DNA of 64,000 nt, taken from positions 1 through 64,000 of the forward strand of contig CAVTRY010000022.1 of the NCBI GenBank assembly GCA_963737265.1. The letters run 5' to 3'. Both the position numbers and the translations under genes were made by a program. Within the stretch, counting starts at the first letter, position 1; each line of letters starts with the position of its first letter. The notes beneath the pieces are model-generated. The model saw nothing but the letters and a program-made list of their open reading frames with translations. It was not told the DNA's origin and did not search any database. Source of the DNA: an uncultured delta proteobacterium. Its GTDB lineage: Bacteria; Myxococcota_A; Polyangia; Fen-1088. Shown here one piece after another: positions 31,603 to 50,328 of the stretch.

Positions 31603-32478
31603 TCAGTACGACGTCGAAAGCTCAAGCACGCCTCCCGCGCCAGCGGATCGAGGAATGAAGCTGACTGAGGTTGCCGTGTCGCGGCCGGTGGCGCTCTCGC
31701 CGTGGTTCTTCACCAGCAGGTAGGTCGCCACGCCGAGCGAGATGAGACCCACCCCGAGGCACGCGTCCGCGAGAAGGTATTTTGTCTTGACGCTGTCGAC
31801 TTGGCTCGACTGACAATAGGGTGAGCAGGTGCGTTCAAGATCGCCCTGCTGGCTGTTGCCGAGCAGAGCGAAGACGGCGAAGCCCGCGACGCCAAGAGTG
31901 CCAACGCCCGCTAGGGCATACGGCAAGGTGCGCCTCTCCGATCGCAGGCTAGGATCAGGCGAAAGCGCGGTCGCAGCGCCCGACGTTGGCGATGGCGGCC
32001 CGACACTCTCGTGCAGTCTGCTGAACTCCACGTTGATGATTCGATTGCGCTCGCCTTCGCGGATGAGCACTTGGCGTTGCTCGGGTGCAAGGCCCGGGAC
32101 GTTGAAGGTGAAGGCGTGGAGGCCTGGATCGACCGGGATGGCCTTGCCGTCAAGGATCCCTGTGAGCGTCTTGTCGTCACATAGGACTTCAACCTCCGTC
32201 AGGTCCTTCCCGTCTTCGCGCACCGAGAAGACGACGGTGGGCAAGGCGCTTTCGGTCTGGTCCATCCAGCGCAAGCAATCCTCGCGAATGAACACGGCGC
32301 AGCTTGGATCGATGCAACTCTTGAGGTGCTCGATGGCGGCGTTGAGGCGCCCGGCCGTCTTCTCTTCTTGCGCCTTCTCGTAAGCTTGGGGGCAGGTCAG
32401 GGGTTCTTCCGCCGCGCGGGCCGCTCCAAGCCACAAGGTGCCCACCAGTGTCGCAGCCAGCATTGCGTACCATCTCAT
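31603..32478 (-). CDS. Secreted TPR-like/PEGA-like myxobacterial protein
   Basis: Signal peptide, CPQAYEKAQ...C...C...C, IPVDPGLH, hydrophobic helices and a terminal beta-strand ending in Tyr. Confidence 0.75.
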   Translation of the reverse strand: MRWYAMLAATLVGTLWLGAARAAEEPLTCPQAYEKAQEEKTAGRLNAAIEHLKSCIDPSCAVFIREDCLRWMDQTESALPTVVFSVREDGKDLTEVEVLCDDKTLTGILDGKAIPVDPGLHAFTFNVPGLAPEQRQVLIREGERNRIINVEFSRLHESVGPPSPTSGAATALSPDPSLRSERRTLPYALAGVGTLGVAGFAVFALLGNSQQGDLERTCSPYCQSSQVDSVKTKYLLADACLGVGLISLGVATYLLVKNHGESATGRDTATSVSFIPRSAGAGGVLELSTSY

Positions 32479-32505
32479 CTCAGCTCTCCATCGGCGTCAT
32501 GGCGC

Positions 32506-34104
32506 TCAAAGGCATTGCGGCTTCACCCGTCGGATGCCCTGCCCGTCGACGTAGAAGGGTGGGTTGCAGTCCTTCTTCTTCCGCCGATGGGTCGTCGACT
32601 GTGCGGTGGTGCTTTGGGGGGACGCGCGACGAGGGATGGAGGGCGCACGCTGTTTCGATTCTACGGGCGCGGTCACGACAGGGGCGGGGTCGGGCTGAGA
32701 CTTCACCAACTCGGGTAGAGCGATCACTTCGACGAGGGGCTTGACCCGAGCGTTGGCCTCGTCGGCGGCCTTGACTTCGCTTTGGTGCGAAGCACGGATG
32801 ATGACGCCGCCGATCGCCACCACCAGAAGGGCCGCGCCAACCGTCATCGGCCAAGGCCTGCGCGTCCAAGAAAGCCACCGCAAAAACAACGTCGGGCGCG
32901 ACGCCGTCCGTGTCTCGTCGAGATTCGTGCTCAACGCATCTTTGCCGGCTTCTTCGCCGTCTCCTTTGCTGCCTTGAAGAAGTTCCGTGCTAATAGCGTC
33001 GACGTCGCTGTAGGTGCCCGGTCGCTTGGGGATACGAAGCGGCGGGCAGGCCGCGCGCTGCGATCGCTGTTCCTGGAAGGGATCGCCAGACGGATCCGCA
33101 TCGAGCGGTGAGCTCTCAATGGCCGTCAGCCTCTCCGAGCTCTTGGCCAGGCCTTCACCTCCCAGGTAAACCACCCATTCGCCCACCTTGCGCGCCGTAG
33201 AGACGGCGATTTCTTCTTCGATGGCCTCGGCGAAGTCGCGGGCGGTCTGAAATCGAAGGCTGACGTCCCGCTCGAGGGCCTTCAGCACAACGCGATCCAG
33301 ACCAGGCGATACCCTGGGGTTGCTGGCGCTGGGACGATCGACGGGTGCCATCAGAACCTTGGCAATAGCTCCGCTGGGGTCGTCCGCTTCAAAGAGGCGC
33401 CGCAGCGTGAGCGCTTCCCAGAAGACGATGCCAGCCGCGAAAATGTCCGCGCGGCGATCAACGGAACCCCCACCCATCTGCTCGGGCGCCATGTAAGAAA
33501 GCTTGCCCTTGAGTTGCCCTTGCCGGGTCGACTGGCTACGCGAAACAGCCTTGGCAACGCCGAAGTCGAGCACGCGCGGCACGCCGTCCGTCCCCACCAT
33601 GATGTTGTGTGGCGATACGTCGCGATGAACGATGTTGAGGGGAGAGCCGAGCTCGTCCATTGCTTCATGCGCGGCGTGGAGGCCGTGGAGGGCGCCACTC
33701 ATGATGGCCGCGCTGATGGCAGGGGGCACGGCGGCGTTCATGGTAAACGCGCCTTTCAGCATGCGCGCCAGGGTTTCGCCGTGGATGTATTCCATCACCA
33801 AGAAGATCTCTTCGCTGTCCTCTAGCAGGACCACATCCAGCGGCGCCGCGACGTTGGGGTGTTGGATGCGCGACACCAGTCGGGCCTCGTCGAGAAACAT
33901 GGCAATGAACTCGGCGTCGCGCGAAAAGTGAGGATGCAGATACTTGATGGCGACGGTGCGCGAGAATCCGACAGCACCGCGCAGCCGTCCGAAATGGACG
34001 CTGGCCATACCACCGGAGGCGATCTCGTCGTACATGACGTAACGCCCAACCACACGCGATGGTTGGGCCTTCGACGGCACGGTGGGCGACGACGCAGAGA
34101 GCAT
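32506..34104 (-). CDS. Membrane Ser/Thr protein kinase
   Basis: IASGGMASV, VAIK, HRDVSPHN, DFG, YMAPE; one TM helix; tail DCNPPFYVDGQGIRRVKPQCL. Confidence 0.93.
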   Translation of the reverse strand: MLSASSPTVPSKAQPSRVVGRYVMYDEIASGGMASVHFGRLRGAVGFSRTVAIKYLHPHFSRDAEFIAMFLDEARLVSRIQHPNVAAPLDVVLLEDSEEIFLVMEYIHGETLARMLKGAFTMNAAVPPAISAAIMSGALHGLHAAHEAMDELGSPLNIVHRDVSPHNIMVGTDGVPRVLDFGVAKAVSRSQSTRQGQLKGKLSYMAPEQMGGGSVDRRADIFAAGIVFWEALTLRRLFEADDPSGAIAKVLMAPVDRPSASNPRVSPGLDRVVLKALERDVSLRFQTARDFAEAIEEEIAVSTARKVGEWVVYLGGEGLAKSSERLTAIESSPLDADPSGDPFQEQRSQRAACPPLRIPKRPGTYSDVDAISTELLQGSKGDGEEAGKDALSTNLDETRTASRPTLFLRWLSWTRRPWPMTVGAALLVVAIGGVIIRASHQSEVKAADEANARVKPLVEVIALPELVKSQPDPAPVVTAPVESKQRAPSIPRRASPQSTTAQSTTHRRKKKDCNPPFYVDGQGIRRVKPQCL

Positions 34105-34247
34105 CTAGCATCTAACATATCGGAGAGCCGCGCCCGCAAGTTGAGCCCGGACTGGCACAACGCTACGCGCTATGGCTCGCGATGCGCCAGAGTCTCTTAC
34201 AGCTGTGAGAGCGGTGGCTGTTACGGATGCCGACGCGCCAGAGCCTC

Positions 34248-48716: not shown

Positions 48717-48818
48717 TTGACCCGCGCGCGGCACACGCGCAGTATCTTTCCGGCGGCCGTGAAGATAAGCGCCGCGCTCTATTGGTGCGAATCGAAATTG
48801 GGACCGCGGCATCAGTAT

Positions 48819-48834
48819 TGGTCCATGAGTTGCA
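48819..48834 (+). promoter_or_regulatory. sigma54 -24/-12 promoter of the GH6 lipoprotein gene
   Basis: TGGTCCATGAGTTGCA; GG-N10-GC spacing with a weaker -24 box. Confidence 0.65.
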
Positions 48835-48891
48835 ACTCGGGCAAAGCGCAACTGGACTCATCCGGAATGCACTTACAGAAAGGACGAAACT

Positions 48892-50328
48892 ATGAAGACA
48901 CGAACAATTGTAGCAATGCTGACCTTTGGCGGTTTACTTGGAGTAACGGGCTGTGACGGCGATTCGGCTGGCACCGCCACCCCCGAGGCAACCGCGAAGC
49001 TCGCAGCGGAAACGAAACCAACGCCCAGCCGTCGTCTCGATCCAGGCACGGAATTCTACGTGCCGGCGCCGGACGATGGGGCCGTGGCGCAAGCATGGGA
49101 GCTATTGAAGTCGAGGGATCTGCACGATGCGCGCAAGTTAATGGCCTTGGTCACCACGCCGCATGCGGCCTGGTTTACCAGTGGGTCGCCGGACGAGGTC
49201 AAGCGGGCCGTTCATCAAACCATGGAGGCCGCCGAGCGCGAACACCGCGTGCCGGTGCTGGTTGCCTACAATCTGCCCTATCGCGATTGCGCCCAGTACT
49301 CATCAGGTGGAGCCACGGACACCGCCGCGTACGAGGCATGGATCGACGGCTTCGCGCAAGGCATTGGCAGGAGGAAGGCGGTCGTCATCCTCGAACCTGA
49401 CGGCCTCGGCCTTATCCCCTACAACACGACAATCAATAATGTCGCCGAGTGGTGCAAACCCACGGTCACGGATTCCGCAGGCAACACGATTCCCGCGCCA
49501 GGGGCAAGCCCAGCCGACCGCTACGCGCAGATCAACTACGCCGTCGACAGTATCGAGGGCCACGCGCCACAGGCATCGGTCTATCTTGATGCCGGACACA
49601 GCGCTTGGCTAGGCGTGGGGGAGGCCGCCTACCGCCTCGCCAAGGCGGGCGTCGCGCGGGCGCAGGGATTCTTCCTCAACGTGTCGAACTACCAATTGAC
49701 GAGCGATTCGATTCAGTTTGGGACCTGGGTATCGATGGCCATCGCCGCGCCGTCGGGCGCTCCTTCGTGGGCCTTCGACAGCAGTGGCAATTTCCACTTC
49801 GATTGGCTTCCGAGTCAGTACGACCCCGCGACGAATTACACCATGGTCAACTACAGCCCGGCCTTCGCGGCGACGGTGACGGCGGGGATTCAGTCATTCA
49901 TGGGCAGCGCGGTGGCGACAACGCAATTTGTGATCGACACCGGTCGCAACGGACAGGGGCCACTCAACACCGCGCCGTACGCCCTCGCGCCCTACAATCA
50001 GTCCGCAGCTGTCATCAGCGGACTCAATTCGGGCGCTTGGTGCAATGCCTATGGCGCGGGCGTGGGACTGCGTCCGTCGGCCAATACCGGGGTTGCGCTT
50101 CTCGATGCCTATCTTTGGGTGAAGGTCCCCGGCGAGTCAGACGGCAGCTGTGACATTGCCGGTGGCGCTCGCGCCTGGGACTACACCGCATACAATCCCT
50201 GGGGGCTGACCGGCGATGCGCAAAATCATTTCGATCCACTGTGGGGCGTGGTCGACGCTCCGGCGGGCGCGTGGCTCGCCGCGCAGGCGCTGCAACTGGC
50301 GAAGAACGCAGACCCAAGCTGGCGCTAG
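48892..50328 (+). CDS. GH6 cellulase lipoprotein, paralogue of the kinase-fused GH6 domain
   Basis: Lipobox VTGC; YNLPYRDC, LEPDG, YLDAGH, DTGRNG, WCN, VKVPGESDG. Confidence 0.94.
   Translation: MKTRTIVAMLTFGGLLGVTGCDGDSAGTATPEATAKLAAETKPTPSRRLDPGTEFYVPAPDDGAVAQAWELLKSRDLHDARKLMALVTTPHAAWFTSGSPDEVKRAVHQTMEAAEREHRVPVLVAYNLPYRDCAQYSSGGATDTAAYEAWIDGFAQGIGRRKAVVILEPDGLGLIPYNTTINNVAEWCKPTVTDSAGNTIPAPGASPADRYAQINYAVDSIEGHAPQASVYLDAGHSAWLGVGEAAYRLAKAGVARAQGFFLNVSNYQLTSDSIQFGTWVSMAIAAPSGAPSWAFDSSGNFHFDWLPSQYDPATNYTMVNYSPAFAATVTAGIQSFMGSAVATTQFVIDTGRNGQGPLNTAPYALAPYNQSAAVISGLNSGAWCNAYGAGVGLRPSANTGVALLDAYLWVKVPGESDGSCDIAGGARAWDYTAYNPWGLTGDAQNHFDPLWGVVDAPAGAWLAAQALQLAKNADPSWR

What the first reader, a model, noticed from the sequence alone, without database searches (positions are those of the whole stretch)
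31603..50328. Candidate cellulose-sensing circuit: GH6 receptor kinase -> FHA-sigma54 activator -> sigma54-driven cellulase genes
Seen: a kinase-TM-GH6 fusion (35648-38074) is divergent from an FHA-AAA+(GAFTGA)-HTH activator (38800-40230). Three glycosidase genes (34248-, 46325+, 48892+) each have a correctly spaced -24/-12 promoter, and both GH6 genes share an upstream motif. Two more kinases, TPR/PEGA proteins and CBM-like lipoproteins are in the same locus. Known: FHA domains bind phosphothreonine, and enhancer-binding proteins activate sigma54 promoters from upstream sites. Inference: glucan binding by the GH6 ectodomain triggers kinase phosphorylation, FHA engagement and cellulase induction. 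This would parallel the CBM/GH-bearing anti-sigma factors of cellulolytic clostridia but use Ser/Thr signalling. I do not know of a described example.
Basis: partly seen in the sequence, partly recalled or inferred. Interest (0 to 1): 0.92.

Follow-up and report, generated by a model that had tools for sequence, protein, structure and literature searches.

The report
Cellulase-like receptor kinase sigma-54 circuit
An uncultured soil myxobacterium has membrane kinases whose outer part is a cellulase-like domain, encoded beside a phosphothreonine-reading sigma-54 activator and glucanase genes that carry its likely binding sites; this looks like an undescribed way for bacteria to sense cellulose.

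Summary
The window encodes a Ser/Thr kinase-TM-GH6 fusion, an FHA-AAA+(GAFTGA)-HTH sigma-54 activator (EBP), two free GH6 genes and a clan GH-A glycosidase, each behind a -24/-12 element. Both GH6 genes carry paired palindromic GGACGTCC boxes.

Comparative data give the main support:
- An EBP gene lies directly upstream of, and co-directional with, the kinase gene in 19 related loci.
- The box pair plus sigma-54 element precedes the GH6 gene downstream of the fusion in 6 of 6 loci.
- In the own genome, boxes and a sigma-54 element coincide only at the two GH6 genes.
- 22 of 27 box pairs in the genus lie at GH6, GH12 or GH-A genes, CBM-like genes, or module genes.
- The GH6 catalytic acid is replaced in 42 of 120 kinase fusions and in 0 of 120 free homologues, while kinase residues stay intact. 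That is the pattern of a sensor domain.

One correction. The divergent fusion/EBP pairing in this window is a recent rearrangement. By orthology the EBP belongs to the neighbouring kinase, it is flanked by MITE-like repeats, and the fusion's own EBP is lost.

Phosphorylation, the ligand and the sign of control are inferred, not shown. I found no published description. Novelty: new variant of a known kind.

The parts
31603..32478 (-). Secreted or membrane protein with two C-terminal hydrophobic stretches, encoded after the kinase at 32506. It resembles the TPR/PEGA partner in layout.
   Evidence: No Pfam hit. Layout read from the translation. Found next to the same kinase in L119 and L133.
32506..34104 (-). 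Ser/Thr kinase with one TM segment and a short Cys-containing outer tail
   Evidence: Pkinase 112.2 bits; translation; syntenic in L133 at 85% identity.
34248..35393 (-). Secreted GH6 glucanase (GH6s) with intact EPD and ESD motifs
   Evidence: Glyco_hydro_6 341.1 bits; signal peptide and motifs read.
35477..35491 (-). -24/-12 sigma-54-type promoter of GH6s (TGGTACGCCGATTGC)
   Evidence: Orthologous elements in L133, L119, L122, L091 and L142.
35541..35570 (.). Two palindromic GGACGTCC boxes 22 bp apart; candidate EBP binding site (UAS) for GH6s
   Evidence: Same pair, 21-23 bp apart, in 6 of 6 loci with a GH6s gene after a fusion.
35648..38074 (-). Receptor Ser/Thr kinase: cytoplasmic kinase, one TM segment, outer GH6 domain (catalytic Asp residues retained here)
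   Evidence: 119 further fusion clusters. Alignment A1. Residue tallies.
38135..38710 (.). MITE-like 576-nt repeat, copy A, carrying a frameshifted PDDEXK_3 (GxxExxY-type) ORF
   Evidence: about 40 copies, mostly 97-99.7% identical, in the genome; PF13366 100.5 bits.
38800..40230 (+). FHA-AAA+(GAFTGA)-HTH sigma-54 activator (EBP2 type). The likely start is the GTG at 38824. Conserved N-terminal Thr-Thr motif.
   Evidence: tree.
40327..40902 (.). MITE-like repeat, copy B, inverted relative to copy A
   Evidence: One search prints 100% complementary; blastn gives 99.65%.
41048..41280 (+). Decayed remnant of an EBP gene (upstream region plus an FHA fragment) abutting the kinase start
   Evidence: Direct repeats D1, D2 and D9; tblastn FHA hit at 41135-41269, 66%.
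41281..42702 (+). Ser/Thr kinase STK2: kinase domain 60% identical to that of the fusion, one TM segment, Pro-rich outer tail ending in FDPHNPYGD
   Evidence: Pkinase 140.6 bits; (60% identity to residues 26-384); translation.
42562..42593 (.). Three boxes (GAACGTCC, GGACGTCC, GAACGTCC) at 12-bp phase inside the STK2 tail coding region
   Evidence: Two or three exact GGACGTCC boxes at 12- or 24-bp spacing in L126, L127, L128, L135, L136.
42704..43861 (+). TPR/PEGA membrane protein; its start codon directly follows the STK2 stop
   Evidence: PEGA 37.6 bits, TPR_16 35.3 bits; start position.
43882..44577 (+). Lipoprotein, possibly a beta-sandwich/CBM-like protein (weak evidence)
   Evidence: CIA30 at E 0.012, below cut-off; lipobox read.
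44582..45451 (+). Lipoprotein, paralogue of the preceding one; possibly CBM-like (weak evidence)
   Evidence: AF2 model of low confidence.
46282..46296 (+). -24/-12 sigma-54-type promoter of the GH-A gene (TGGTACGGTCGTTGC)
   Evidence: Orthologous elements in L126, L127, L128, L135, L149.
46325..48463 (+). Lipoprotein glycosidase of clan GH-A (no Pfam family) with a C-terminal beta-rich domain
48674..48714 (.). Two GGACGTCC boxes 11 bp apart plus a GACGTCC half box; candidate UAS of GH6L
48819..48833 (+). -24/-12 sigma-54-type promoter of GH6L (TGGTCCATGAGTTGC, 2 mismatches to consensus)
   Evidence: Orthologous TGGCCC/TGGCGC elements in L126, L127, L128, L124.
48892..50328 (+). GH6 lipoprotein (GH6L), 54% identical to the fusion's ectodomain
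   Evidence: Glyco_hydro_6 223.6 bits; (54% identity to residues 363-805); closest solved structures 6fao, 1up0, 1tml.

Best explanation
The locus holds two copies of a conserved Polyangia signalling cassette: a receptor Ser/Thr kinase, an FHA-type sigma-54 enhancer-binding protein (EBP), and sigma-54 promoters on beta-glucan-degrading genes.

Proposed mechanism:
1. In one receptor the sensor is a GH6 domain fused outside the membrane. It binds, and may still cut, a beta-1,4-glucan. The other receptor (STK2) has only a Pro-rich tail and probably works with the TPR/PEGA protein and the two lipoproteins encoded after it.
2. Ligand contact activates the cytoplasmic kinase.
3. The kinase acts on the EBP, either through the EBP's FHA domain docking on kinase phosphothreonine, or by phosphorylating the conserved N-terminal Thr-Thr motif, which then folds back on the FHA domain as in GarA.
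4. That step changes the assembly of the AAA+ ring.
5. The EBP binds paired GGACGTCC boxes 50-150 bp upstream of -24/-12 promoters and drives GH6s, GH6L and probably the GH-A gene.

In this genome a rearrangement at MITE-like repeats left a single EBP between two kinases, so both kinases would feed the same EBP.

Shown: domain architectures, conserved gene order, conserved boxes and promoters, loss of catalytic residues restricted to the fusions, and rpoN in the genome.
Inferred: ligand identity, phosphorylation, which protein binds the boxes, and whether the signal induces or represses.
For: - Architecture.
- Fusion family: 120 of the 120 listed clusters carry Pkinase plus GH6.
- Taxonomic range: full-length fusions in 10 of 61 genomes searched, all in family f1 (10 of 37, counting G000), and in 0 of 24 genomes of other families of the class.
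- Gene order: the EBP gene lies immediately upstream of, and co-directional with, the kinase gene in L118-L128 (with L091), L130-L132, L008, L136, L138 and L142. That is 19 loci from 14 assemblies plus metagenome contigs. The same order occurs at C23:6952-10317 of the own genome.
- Boxes and promoter: 6 of 6 GH6s genes that follow a fusion, and 7 GH6L loci, have them. Over 24 loci (364 kb), 20 of 44 sigma-54-like sites have a box within 350 nt upstream. About 2 would be expected from box density (my estimate; kin are not independent).
- Own genome: the combination occurs only at GH6s and GH6L.
- Genus level: box pairs occur in 10 of 13 genomes. The 3 genomes without them are the 3 with no match to the fusion.
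- Of the 27 pairs, 22 lie before GH6, GH12, GH-A or CBM-like genes, the TPR/PEGA operon or an EBP operon, or inside kinase tails.
- Sensor signature: EPD Asp is kept in 78/120 fusions against 120/120 free homologues, and ESD Asp in 91/120 against 121/121. Kinase Lys, HRD Asp, Asn and APE Glu are kept in at least 117/120. The EPD Asp state changes at least 7 times on the tree.
- EBP sequence: the FHA residues GR, SRRH and N, the GAFTGA loop and the HTH helix RQRAYR.M are invariant in 18 EBPs. Thr17 is present in 16 of the 16 rows that cover it.
- rpoN is present.
- Complementary losses: G000 has the fusion without EBP1, and G001 has EBP1 followed by GH6s without a kinase.
Against: - There is no experimental or expression evidence: no RNA run holds the locus.
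- In this window the EBP is not adjacent in an operon to either kinase. It is 725 nt divergent from the fusion and 1,050 nt upstream of STK2, and it is the orthologue of STK2's partner. The fusion-to-EBP link here is therefore cross-talk by inference.
- The window's own ectodomain keeps all catalytic residues, so it could simply be an active anchored enzyme.
- The GH-A gene has the promoter but no box within 400 nt in 5 of 5 module contexts.
- -24/-12 look-alikes alone are not enriched in the window.
- Single boxes near sigma-54-like sites are not above chance genome-wide: about 3.5 expected by my estimate, 1 seen.
- 5 of 27 box pairs lie at places I could not assign.
- Several loci are near-duplicates of each other (L124, L134, L138, L139; L127, L128), so the counts overstate independence.
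Confidence: 0.7

Rival explanations
1. The fusion in this window is an orphan. The EBP is controlled only by its ancestral partner STK2, with the TPR/PEGA protein and the lipoproteins. The kinase-GH6 protein, having lost its own EBP, signals to something else or to nothing.
For: The window's EBP groups with the EBPs that precede STK2-type kinases (SH-aLRT 97). A contig 88-90% identical in DNA keeps a separate EBP1 upstream of the fusion. EBP1 is not found in this 99.5%-complete genome.
Against: The fusion ORF is intact and keeps every kinase and GH6 motif. The GH6s gene behind it keeps its box pair and promoter. The HTH recognition helix is identical in the EBP1 and EBP2 clades and both kinds of target carry the same box. 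The kinase domains are 60% identical. G001 shows the mirror case, EBP1 without a kinase.
Confidence: 0.17
2. The kinase-GH6 protein is mainly a membrane-anchored cellulase. The kinase domain tunes the enzyme or unrelated targets, and the adjacency to an EBP reflects co-expression rather than signalling.
For: The window's ectodomain keeps the RDC, EPD and ESD aspartates. It is 54% identical to a free GH6 of the same locus.
Against: 42 of 120 fusions have lost the catalytic acid, in at least 7 changes of state on the tree. None of 120 free homologues has lost it, and kinase residues stay at 117/120 or more. An enzyme-first protein would not tolerate that. The EBP-kinase gene order is kept across genera.
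Confidence: 0.08
3. The GGACGTCC boxes are bound by another regulator (or are a repeat element), and the -24/-12 look-alikes are chance. The glycosidase genes are not under EBP/sigma-54 control.
For: -24/-12 look-alikes are common in this G+C-rich DNA (91 observed against 76 expected). Boxes also occur inside coding sequence (kinase tails, a UPF0158 gene). No protein-DNA test was possible.
Against: Box pairs lie 50-180 nt upstream of a -24/-12 element in the right orientation at orthologous and non-orthologous glycosidase genes in at least 9 genomes, while the flanks diverge. In the own genome the combination occurs only at the two GH6 genes. Box pairs are absent from the 3 genus members that lack the cassette.
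Confidence: 0.08
4. The circuit is real, but the signal is not plant cellulose. It could be another beta-glucan, such as prey or biofilm cellulose, mixed-linkage glucan, xyloglucan or the cell's own exopolysaccharide.
For: Regulon members in relatives include GH12 and an unclassified GH-A enzyme, whose families act on several beta-glucans (recalled). The GH6 subfamily has long insertions relative to solved cellulases. No binding data exist.
Against: All characterised GH6 enzymes act on beta-1,4-glucans (recalled). The genome has 7 GH6 genes. The runs that hold parts of the locus are labelled soil, peat and wetland metagenomes (small shares, weak evidence).
Confidence: 0.2

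Closest known systems
RsgI/sigma-I biomass sensors of Clostridium thermocellum, especially RsgI6 with its GH10 sensor module
   Same: Both are membrane proteins whose outer domain is a glycoside-hydrolase fold turned into a polysaccharide sensor, closely related to an enzyme of its own regulon. 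RsgI6-GH10 is 57% identical to Xyn10D, has very low activity and retains binding (passages of PMC4711584). Here the ectodomain is 54% identical to GH6L. Nine RsgIs sense different substrates (abstract of PMC12203970).
   Different: The output there is an anti-sigma factor released by proteolysis, acting on sigma-I. Here it is a Hanks-type kinase, an FHA-EBP and sigma-54. There is no RsgI_N domain: Pfam finds only Pkinase and GH6. The organism is Gram-negative Myxococcota, and the sensor is GH6 rather than GH10, CBM3 or PA14.
FHA-containing enhancer-binding proteins of Myxococcus xanthus (Jelsbak, Givskov and Kaiser 2005)
   Same: Both are sigma-54 activators whose N-terminal regulatory domain is FHA instead of a receiver, and Ser/Thr kinases were proposed as their input. 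The content is recalled; I saw only the citation in the reference list of PMC12288465, and the paper itself is not held.
   Different: Those proteins were linked to fruiting-body development, without a defined kinase partner, sensor or binding site as far as I recall. Here the kinase partner is operon-encoded, the sensor domain is recognisable, and the candidate UAS and target promoters can be read from the DNA.
Mycobacterial Ser/Thr kinase to FHA protein pairs: PknH-EmbR, and PknB/PknG-GarA
   Same: A transmembrane Hanks kinase signals to an FHA-bearing regulator (PknH phosphorylates EmbR through its FHA domain: passage of PMC2877116). GarA carries two regulatory threonines in an ETTS motif N-terminal to its FHA domain (passages of PMC12321487). 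The EBPs here have a conserved TT[VI]T motif about 40 residues before the FHA domain.
   Different: EmbR is a SARP/BTAD-type regulator and GarA regulates enzymes. Neither is an AAA+ sigma-54 activator, and actinobacteria have no sigma-54 (recalled). Their sensors are not glycoside hydrolases.
NtrC-family two-component enhancer-binding proteins
   Same: The same AAA+ (GAFTGA) and Fis-type HTH output module, acting from upstream sites on -24/-12 promoters (established knowledge).
   Different: Input there is a receiver domain phosphorylated on Asp by a histidine kinase. Here an FHA domain is paired with a Ser/Thr kinase, and no receiver domain is found.
Kinase-GH6 fusion of Nonomuraea sp. (locus L035)
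   Same: An 810-aa protein with Pkinase (128.1 bits) and GH6 (177.4 bits), 35% identical over residues 33-801.
   Different: It is actinobacterial, has no FHA-EBP neighbour (an ABC transporter lies upstream) and belongs to a phylum without a sigma-54 system. It shows that the receptor architecture is older or arose more than once, with a different output.

Membership tests
Glycoside hydrolase family 6 (ectodomain of 35648-38074) | Match to the family profile above the curated cut-off | tested here: met
   PF01341, 196.5 bits against a cut-off of 27.
Glycoside hydrolase family 6 (ectodomain of 35648-38074) | Catalytic acid Asp of the EPD motif, Asp of the RDC motif and Asp of the ESD motif (roles recalled from work on Cel6A enzymes) | tested here: met
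   D462, D500 and D746 are present in the window's protein. In the fusion family as a whole D500 is kept in only 78/120 and D746 in 91/120.
Glycoside hydrolase family 6 (ectodomain of 35648-38074) | Hydrolysis of beta-1,4-glucan | not testable with these tools
   Needs an enzyme assay.
Hanks-type Ser/Thr protein kinase | Profile match and catalytic residues (Lys of VAIK, HRD Asp, catalytic-loop Asn, DFG, APE) | tested here: met
   PF00069, 134.1 bits. K64, H157-R158-D159, N164, D181-F182-G183 and P211-E212 are invariant in 26 fusions.
Bacterial enhancer-binding protein (sigma-54 activator) | AAA+ sigma-54 interaction domain with GAFTGA loop and Walker A/B motifs, plus a C-terminal HTH | tested here: met
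   PF00158, 181 bits; HTH_8, 31.9 bits. GETGTGKE, LLLDE and GAFTGA are invariant in 18 EBPs.
Bacterial enhancer-binding protein (sigma-54 activator) | Sigma-54 (rpoN) present in the same genome | tested here: met
   PF04552, 217.2 bits, at C12:190318-190794.
FHA phosphothreonine-binding domain | Profile match and the conserved Gly-Arg, Ser-x-x-His and Asn residues | tested here: met
   PF00498, 64.8 bits. G61-R62, S76-R77-R78-H79 and N100 are invariant. The roles of these residues are recalled.
Sigma-54-dependent promoter | GG and GC doublets ten bases apart, close to the consensus TGGCAC-N5-TTGC (consensus recalled), upstream of the gene on the right strand | tested here: met
   Three sites, conserved at orthologous genes.
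Sigma-54-dependent promoter | Transcription start about 12 nt downstream, and dependence on rpoN and an EBP | not testable with these tools
   No RNA holder is listed.
RsgI-type anti-sigma polysaccharide sensor | N-terminal RsgI anti-sigma domain with a sigma-I partner | tested here: not met
   The Pfam scan of the fusion finds only kinase-type families and GH6. It works like an RsgI sensor but is not a member.
NtrC-type two-component response regulator | N-terminal receiver domain with a phospho-accepting Asp | tested here: not met
   The N-terminal domain is FHA; there is no Response_reg hit.
GarA/OdhI-like FHA phosphoswitch | [quoted passage not shown] | tested here: inconclusive
   A TT[VI]T motif is present (T17 in 16/16 rows, T16 in 15/16). 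Phosphorylation and fold-back cannot be tested here.

The most novel reading that the evidence does not exclude
A widespread family of Polyangia receptor kinases uses a GH6 cellulase fold, often catalytically dead, as the outside sensor for insoluble beta-glucan. It signals through an operon-encoded FHA-sigma-54 activator that works as a GarA-like phosphothreonine switch. This would be the first fully wired path from a eukaryote-like Ser/Thr kinase to a sigma-54 regulon, with the sensor, partner, DNA site and target genes all known. Kinases and activators of paralogous cassettes would be interchangeable. The activator's sites embedded in the kinase gene's own coding sequence would add feedback.
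Probability: 0.45. Interest if true: 0.88.

Novelty: new variant of a known kind. Interest (0 to 1): 0.78.

Why it matters
- An open question in myxobacteria. Since FHA-type sigma-54 activators were found there, it has been proposed, but as far as I could find never wired end to end, that the very large myxobacterial kinome feeds sigma-54 activators. This cassette offers a compact test case. The kinase partner is operon-encoded, the sensor domain points to a ligand class, an 8-bp palindromic site can be read from the DNA, and the target promoters sit on a handful of glucanase genes.
- A second GH-fold sensor. It would be an independent case, in a Gram-negative phylum and with a different signalling chemistry, of a glycoside-hydrolase fold recruited as a polysaccharide sensor closely related to an enzyme of its own regulon. 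The known case is RsgI6 of C. thermocellum.
- Carbon turnover. The organisms are uncultured Polyangia, and parts of the locus are held by soil, peat and wetland metagenomes. The circuit therefore bears on how cellulose breakdown is controlled in such carbon-rich soils.
- A possible biosensor part: an insoluble-substrate-responsive switch.

Tried and rejected
- Complex prediction. I submitted the fusion's kinase domain (residues 20-320, alignment A1) with the EBP N-terminus plus FHA domain (1-135, alignment A2). Score 0.12 against a mark of 0.32, so no verdict. It is not used as evidence either way.
- Sequencing runs. No RNA holder is listed. The best DNA holder has 0.37 of the sampled words and all runs are kept as Logan contigs. 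The pieces laid were short and none bridged the repeat/EBP junctions. Neither the assembly of the MITE-EBP-MITE segment nor a possible inversion could be checked. The soil, peat and wetland labels come from small shares and are weak.
- Apparent EBP-kinase(-GH6) single open frames in G008 (1265 aa) and G002 (960 aa), and possibly the 1048-aa database protein P0114, are not natural fusions. The EBP C-terminus is read out of frame after NVRE, consistent with a frameshift or an assembly indel.
- The sigma-54-like hit TGGCACAGTCATTAC, found twice (38506+, 40517-), lies inside the MITE-like repeat and is not a promoter of the locus.
- The first genome-contig scan chose kinase-domain peptides and returned mostly generic kinases. 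Only L008 and L035 were informative.
- AF2 model of the lipoprotein at 44582-45451: mean pLDDT 55.3, too poor for a fold search. 'CBM-like' therefore stays a weak lead.
- The sigma-54-like element TGGCA[CT]-N5-[CG]TGC that follows the boxes in the kinase tails overlaps the start codon of the TPR/PEGA gene. I could not decide whether it is a promoter or merely conserved coding sequence.
- Literature searches for a kinase-GH6 receptor or a wired STK/FHA-EBP pair found nothing relevant. The library lacks most subscription journals, Jelsbak et al. 2005 is not held, and supplements are closed, so this is 'not found in those searches', not 'not in print'.

Full report
WHAT IS THERE

The window is the first 64 kb of contig C22 of a 6.55-Mb assembly in 25 contigs, with about 63-65% G+C. 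Database homologues that carry a name are called 'Polyangia bacterium', so the organism is an uncultured member of Myxococcota.

- A Ser/Thr kinase at 32506-34104(-).
- A secreted GH6 at 34248-35393(-), here called GH6s.
- An 808-aa protein at 35648-38074(-) with an N-terminal kinase domain, one hydrophobic stretch (read; no predictor was run) and a C-terminal GH6 domain.
- An FHA/AAA+(GAFTGA)/HTH_8 sigma-54 activator (EBP) at 38800-40230(+).
- A second membrane kinase at 41281-42702(+), here called STK2. Its kinase domain is 60% identical to that of the fusion.
- A TPR/PEGA protein.
- Two lipoproteins without a family.
- A 712-aa lipoprotein at 46325-48463(+).
- A GH6 lipoprotein at 48892-50328(+), here called GH6L, 54% identical to the fusion's ectodomain.

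The 712-aa protein has no Pfam hit. Its homologues weakly match GH44, GH39, Glyco_hydro_cc and GH79 (16, 14, 13 and 6 of 38). Its AF2 model (pLDDT 81.9) superposes on GH51, GH30, GH79 and GH44 TIM barrels. It is therefore a clan GH-A glycosidase of unassigned family.

PROMOTERS AND SHARED MOTIF

Such look-alikes are not enriched in the window as a whole (91 seen, 76 expected), so on their own they prove little.

The shared motif is the palindrome GGACGTCC:
- The window has 9 copies against 1.7 expected.
- The whole genome has 163 copies and only four pairs within 60 bp. One pair lies 57-79 nt upstream of the GH6s -24/-12 element and another 134-145 nt upstream of the GH6L element.
- A genome-wide scan for a sigma-54-like site with boxes 30-350 nt upstream returns exactly these two places.
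- rpoN is present.

THE FUSION IS A FAMILY, AND ITS GH6 DOMAIN BEHAVES LIKE A SENSOR

The large protein search lists 119 further clusters, all with Pkinase plus GH6. Among 61 genomes of the class, full-length fusions occur in 10, all in the window's family, and in none of 24 genomes from other families.

In an alignment of 120 fusions the kinase catalytic residues are kept in at least 117. The residues important for GH6 catalysis are not (their roles are recalled from work on Cel6A enzymes):
- The Asp of the EPD motif is replaced in 42 of 120 (N 25, H 7, S 6, T 2, G 1, E 1).
- The Asp of the ESD motif is replaced in 29 of 120.

Among the 121 free GH6 sequences of the same subfamily (P0004 and its 120 listed homologues), these residues are Asp in 120 of 120 (one row has a gap at that column) and 121 of 121. 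On a tree of the fusions the EPD state changes at least 7 times. Structural residues (RDC Asp, EPD Glu, YLD Asp) stay conserved.

This is the pattern expected when a hydrolase fold is kept for binding rather than for catalysis. The window's own copy still has all the aspartates, so it may bind and cut.

THE EBP-KINASE LINK IS CONSERVED AS AN OPERON

I fetched the surroundings of fusions and kinase paralogues in related genomes and metagenome contigs and mapped the window's proteins on them.

In 19 loci the EBP gene ends a few to a few tens of bases before the kinase gene on the same strand.
- Nine such loci (eight from genomes, one a metagenome contig) have the order EBP, kinase-GH6. In G003, G006, G007 and L142 GH6s follows.
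- Others have the order EBP, STK2-type kinase, TPR/PEGA, lipoprotein, lipoprotein, GH-A glycosidase, GH6L (G001, G002, G008). This matches the right half of the window.
- In G025 and several metagenome contigs the kinase at that second position itself carries a GH6 domain.
- 30 of the 120 fusions end in the same FDxxNPY motif as STK2's tail.

The two kinase types are therefore variants of one receptor. A third cassette (EBP, kinase, TPR/PEGA) lies at C23:6952-10317 of the own genome. Among the 80 generic kinase loci returned first, only one (L008) had an EBP directly adjacent (two others had an EBP hit several kb away on the opposite strand), so adjacency is specific to this clade.

THE REGULON IS CONSERVED

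Upstream of every GH6s gene that follows a fusion (6 of 6: window, L133, L119, L122, L091, L142) there are two GGACGTCC boxes 21-23 bp apart. A TGG[CT]ACG-N4-TTGC element lies 50-111 nt further on, while the surrounding sequence differs. GH6L genes have boxes plus a TGG[CT][CG]C-N5-TTGC element in the window, L126, L127, L128, L124, L134 and L138.

Across the 13 genomes of the genus, box pairs occur in 10. The three genomes without them are exactly the three with no match to the fusion, STK2 or GH6L. The reversed-pattern control gives 0-2 per genome.

Of the 27 pairs, 22 fall into these classes:
- Upstream of GH6 genes.
- Upstream of two GH12 genes.
- Upstream of a GH-A orthologue (three boxes plus TGGTACGGCCGTTGC in G010).
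- Upstream of a gene whose product resembles the C-terminal domain of the GH-A protein.
- Upstream of the TPR/PEGA operon.
- Upstream of an operon that begins with such a CBM-like gene and contains an EBP, which suggests autoregulation.
- Inside kinase tail-coding regions.
Five pairs are unassigned.

WHAT IS DIFFERENT IN THIS WINDOW

The EBP is flanked by two inverted copies of a 576-nt element (38135-38710 and 40327-40902). The element occurs about 40 times in the genome, mostly at 97-99.7% identity, and carries a frameshifted PDDEXK_3 ORF. It is a MITE-like repeat.

Directly before STK2 lies a decayed remnant of an EBP gene (41048-41280).

In a tree of 17 EBPs the window's protein groups with those that precede STK2-type kinases (SH-aLRT 97). 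It does not group with the seven genus-g1 EBPs that precede fusions.

A metagenome contig that is 88-90% identical in DNA is collinear with 53032-50389 and with 37979-32243 of the window. Between those two blocks it holds a different 6.3 kb, which contains a separate EBP (65% identical to the window's) and a GH5 gene upstream of the fusion. That EBP type is not found anywhere in the 99.5%-complete genome.

The mirror case exists: G001 has that EBP type followed by GH6s with no kinase, and no fusion was found in its 90%-complete assembly.

Three observations make cross-talk between cassettes plausible. The losses in G000 and G001 are complementary. The HTH helix RQRAYR.M is invariant in both EBP clades. 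The same box sits at both kinds of target.

HOW IT PROBABLY WORKS

Shown: architecture, operon order, sites and the sensor signature.

Inferred:
- Glucan contact at the GH6 domain activates the kinase. For STK2 the contact would be at a complex with the TPR/PEGA protein and the lipoproteins.
- The kinase acts on the EBP through its FHA domain.
- The EBP, bound at box pairs, opens sigma-54 promoters of glucanase genes.

The FHA pocket residues are invariant. All 16 EBPs that cover the N-terminus have a TT[VI]T motif about 40 residues before the FHA domain. This resembles the ETTS motif of GarA, whose phosphorylation sites lie N-terminal to its FHA domain (passages of PMC12321487). A fold-back phosphoswitch that controls AAA+ assembly is my preferred mechanism, at moderate confidence. 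The sign of control is unknown.

COMPARISON WITH KNOWN SYSTEMS

Functionally the closest system is RsgI6/sigma-I6 of C. thermocellum. Its GH10 sensor has very low activity, retains binding and is 57% identical to a xylanase of its regulon (PMC4711584). The window's system shares the logic but none of the defining domains.

The kinase-to-FHA step resembles PknH-EmbR and PknB/G-GarA. The output module is that of NtrC-type EBPs, with FHA in place of a receiver. FHA-EBPs were described in M. xanthus in 2005; I saw only the citation and the content is recalled.

Six literature searches found no description of a kinase-GH6 receptor or of a wired kinase/FHA-EBP/regulon set. The library is incomplete and supplements were closed. 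A kinase-GH6 fusion without an EBP also exists in Nonomuraea.

VERDICT

It is a new variant of known kinds (receptor Ser/Thr kinase, FHA partner, sigma-54 EBP, GH-fold sensor). It is of high interest because every component needed for a decisive experiment can be read from the sequence.

Noticed in passing
window 38135-38710 and 40327-40902; about 40 further copies in G000: A 576-nt MITE-like element with 23-nt terminal inverted repeats and a frameshifted PDDEXK_3 (GxxExxY-type) ORF, mostly 97-99.7% identical between copies. Two inverted copies bracket the 1.6-kb EBP segment, so homologous recombination could invert it. That would place the EBP on the strand of the fusion.
   Followed up: partly
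window 41048-41280: Remnant of an EBP gene (upstream region and an FHA fragment, 73-100% identical in pieces to 38718-39181) fused onto the start of the kinase gene at 41281. It marks the ancestral EBP position.
   Followed up: partly
window 42562-42593; L126, L127, L128, L135, L136, L124: Candidate EBP boxes lie inside the coding sequence of the kinase's outer tail, read as (G/E)RP repeats at 12-bp phase. Genome-wide only 32 of 1207 GRP tripeptides in long ORFs use GGACGTCC, so the DNA motif, not the peptide, seems to be selected. A sigma-54-like element 110-180 nt downstream overlaps the TPR/PEGA start codon. Function unexplained.
   Followed up: partly
window 42675-42702 (end of STK2); C-termini of 30 of 120 fusions: A conserved C-terminal FDxxNPY(G)(D/N/R) motif ends the outer tail of STK2 and of the longer fusions. 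It may be a docking peptide for the TPR/PEGA protein encoded next.
   Followed up: no
window 45487-46139: A FitA-like RHH antitoxin (56.4 bits) and a PIN toxin (54.6 bits) are inserted between the second lipoprotein gene and the GH-A gene. The pair is absent at this place in G001 (L126).
   Followed up: partly
window 56037-56074: A third GGACGTCC pair (30 bp apart) lies inside the 3' part of a UPF0158 gene (55962-56705-), with no nearby sigma-54 element pointing at a gene. It may be chance or a distant site.
   Followed up: partly
G000:C23:6952-10317: A third paralogous cassette in the same genome: FHA-EBP (49% identical), then a kinase (54%), then a TPR/PEGA protein.
   Followed up: partly
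L147 (G001:C7:660500-669500): In G001 boxes plus a sigma-54 element precede a CBM-like gene and an EBP of the fusion-partner type. That EBP is followed directly by boxes, a promoter and GH6s, with no kinase. This suggests autoregulation and is the mirror image of the window's loss.
   Followed up: partly
L035 (Nonomuraea sp., 9833-12265): An actinobacterial 810-aa Pkinase-GH6 fusion next to an oligopeptide-type ABC transporter, with no FHA-EBP.
   Followed up: partly
L118 (G008:C16) and L127 (G002:C44): The EBP genes are frameshifted after the NVRE motif, which creates apparent 1265-aa and 960-aa EBP-kinase open frames. These are probably assembly indels or pseudogenes.
   Followed up: yes
L130 (G013:C80), first 55 bases or so: The contig begins with what looks like a sequencing-adapter sequence (recognised from memory), so the assembly was not fully trimmed.
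   Followed up: no
L133 7716-8858(-): In the close relative a GH5 cellulase gene (202.7 bits) lies between the fusion's own EBP and the fusion. No box or sigma-54 element was seen for it.
   Followed up: partly
window 53108-54148(-) and 58303-61422(-): A further Ser/Thr kinase (121.5 bits) and a 1039-aa TPR protein lie to the right of the locus, so the region is dense in kinase signalling genes.
   Followed up: no
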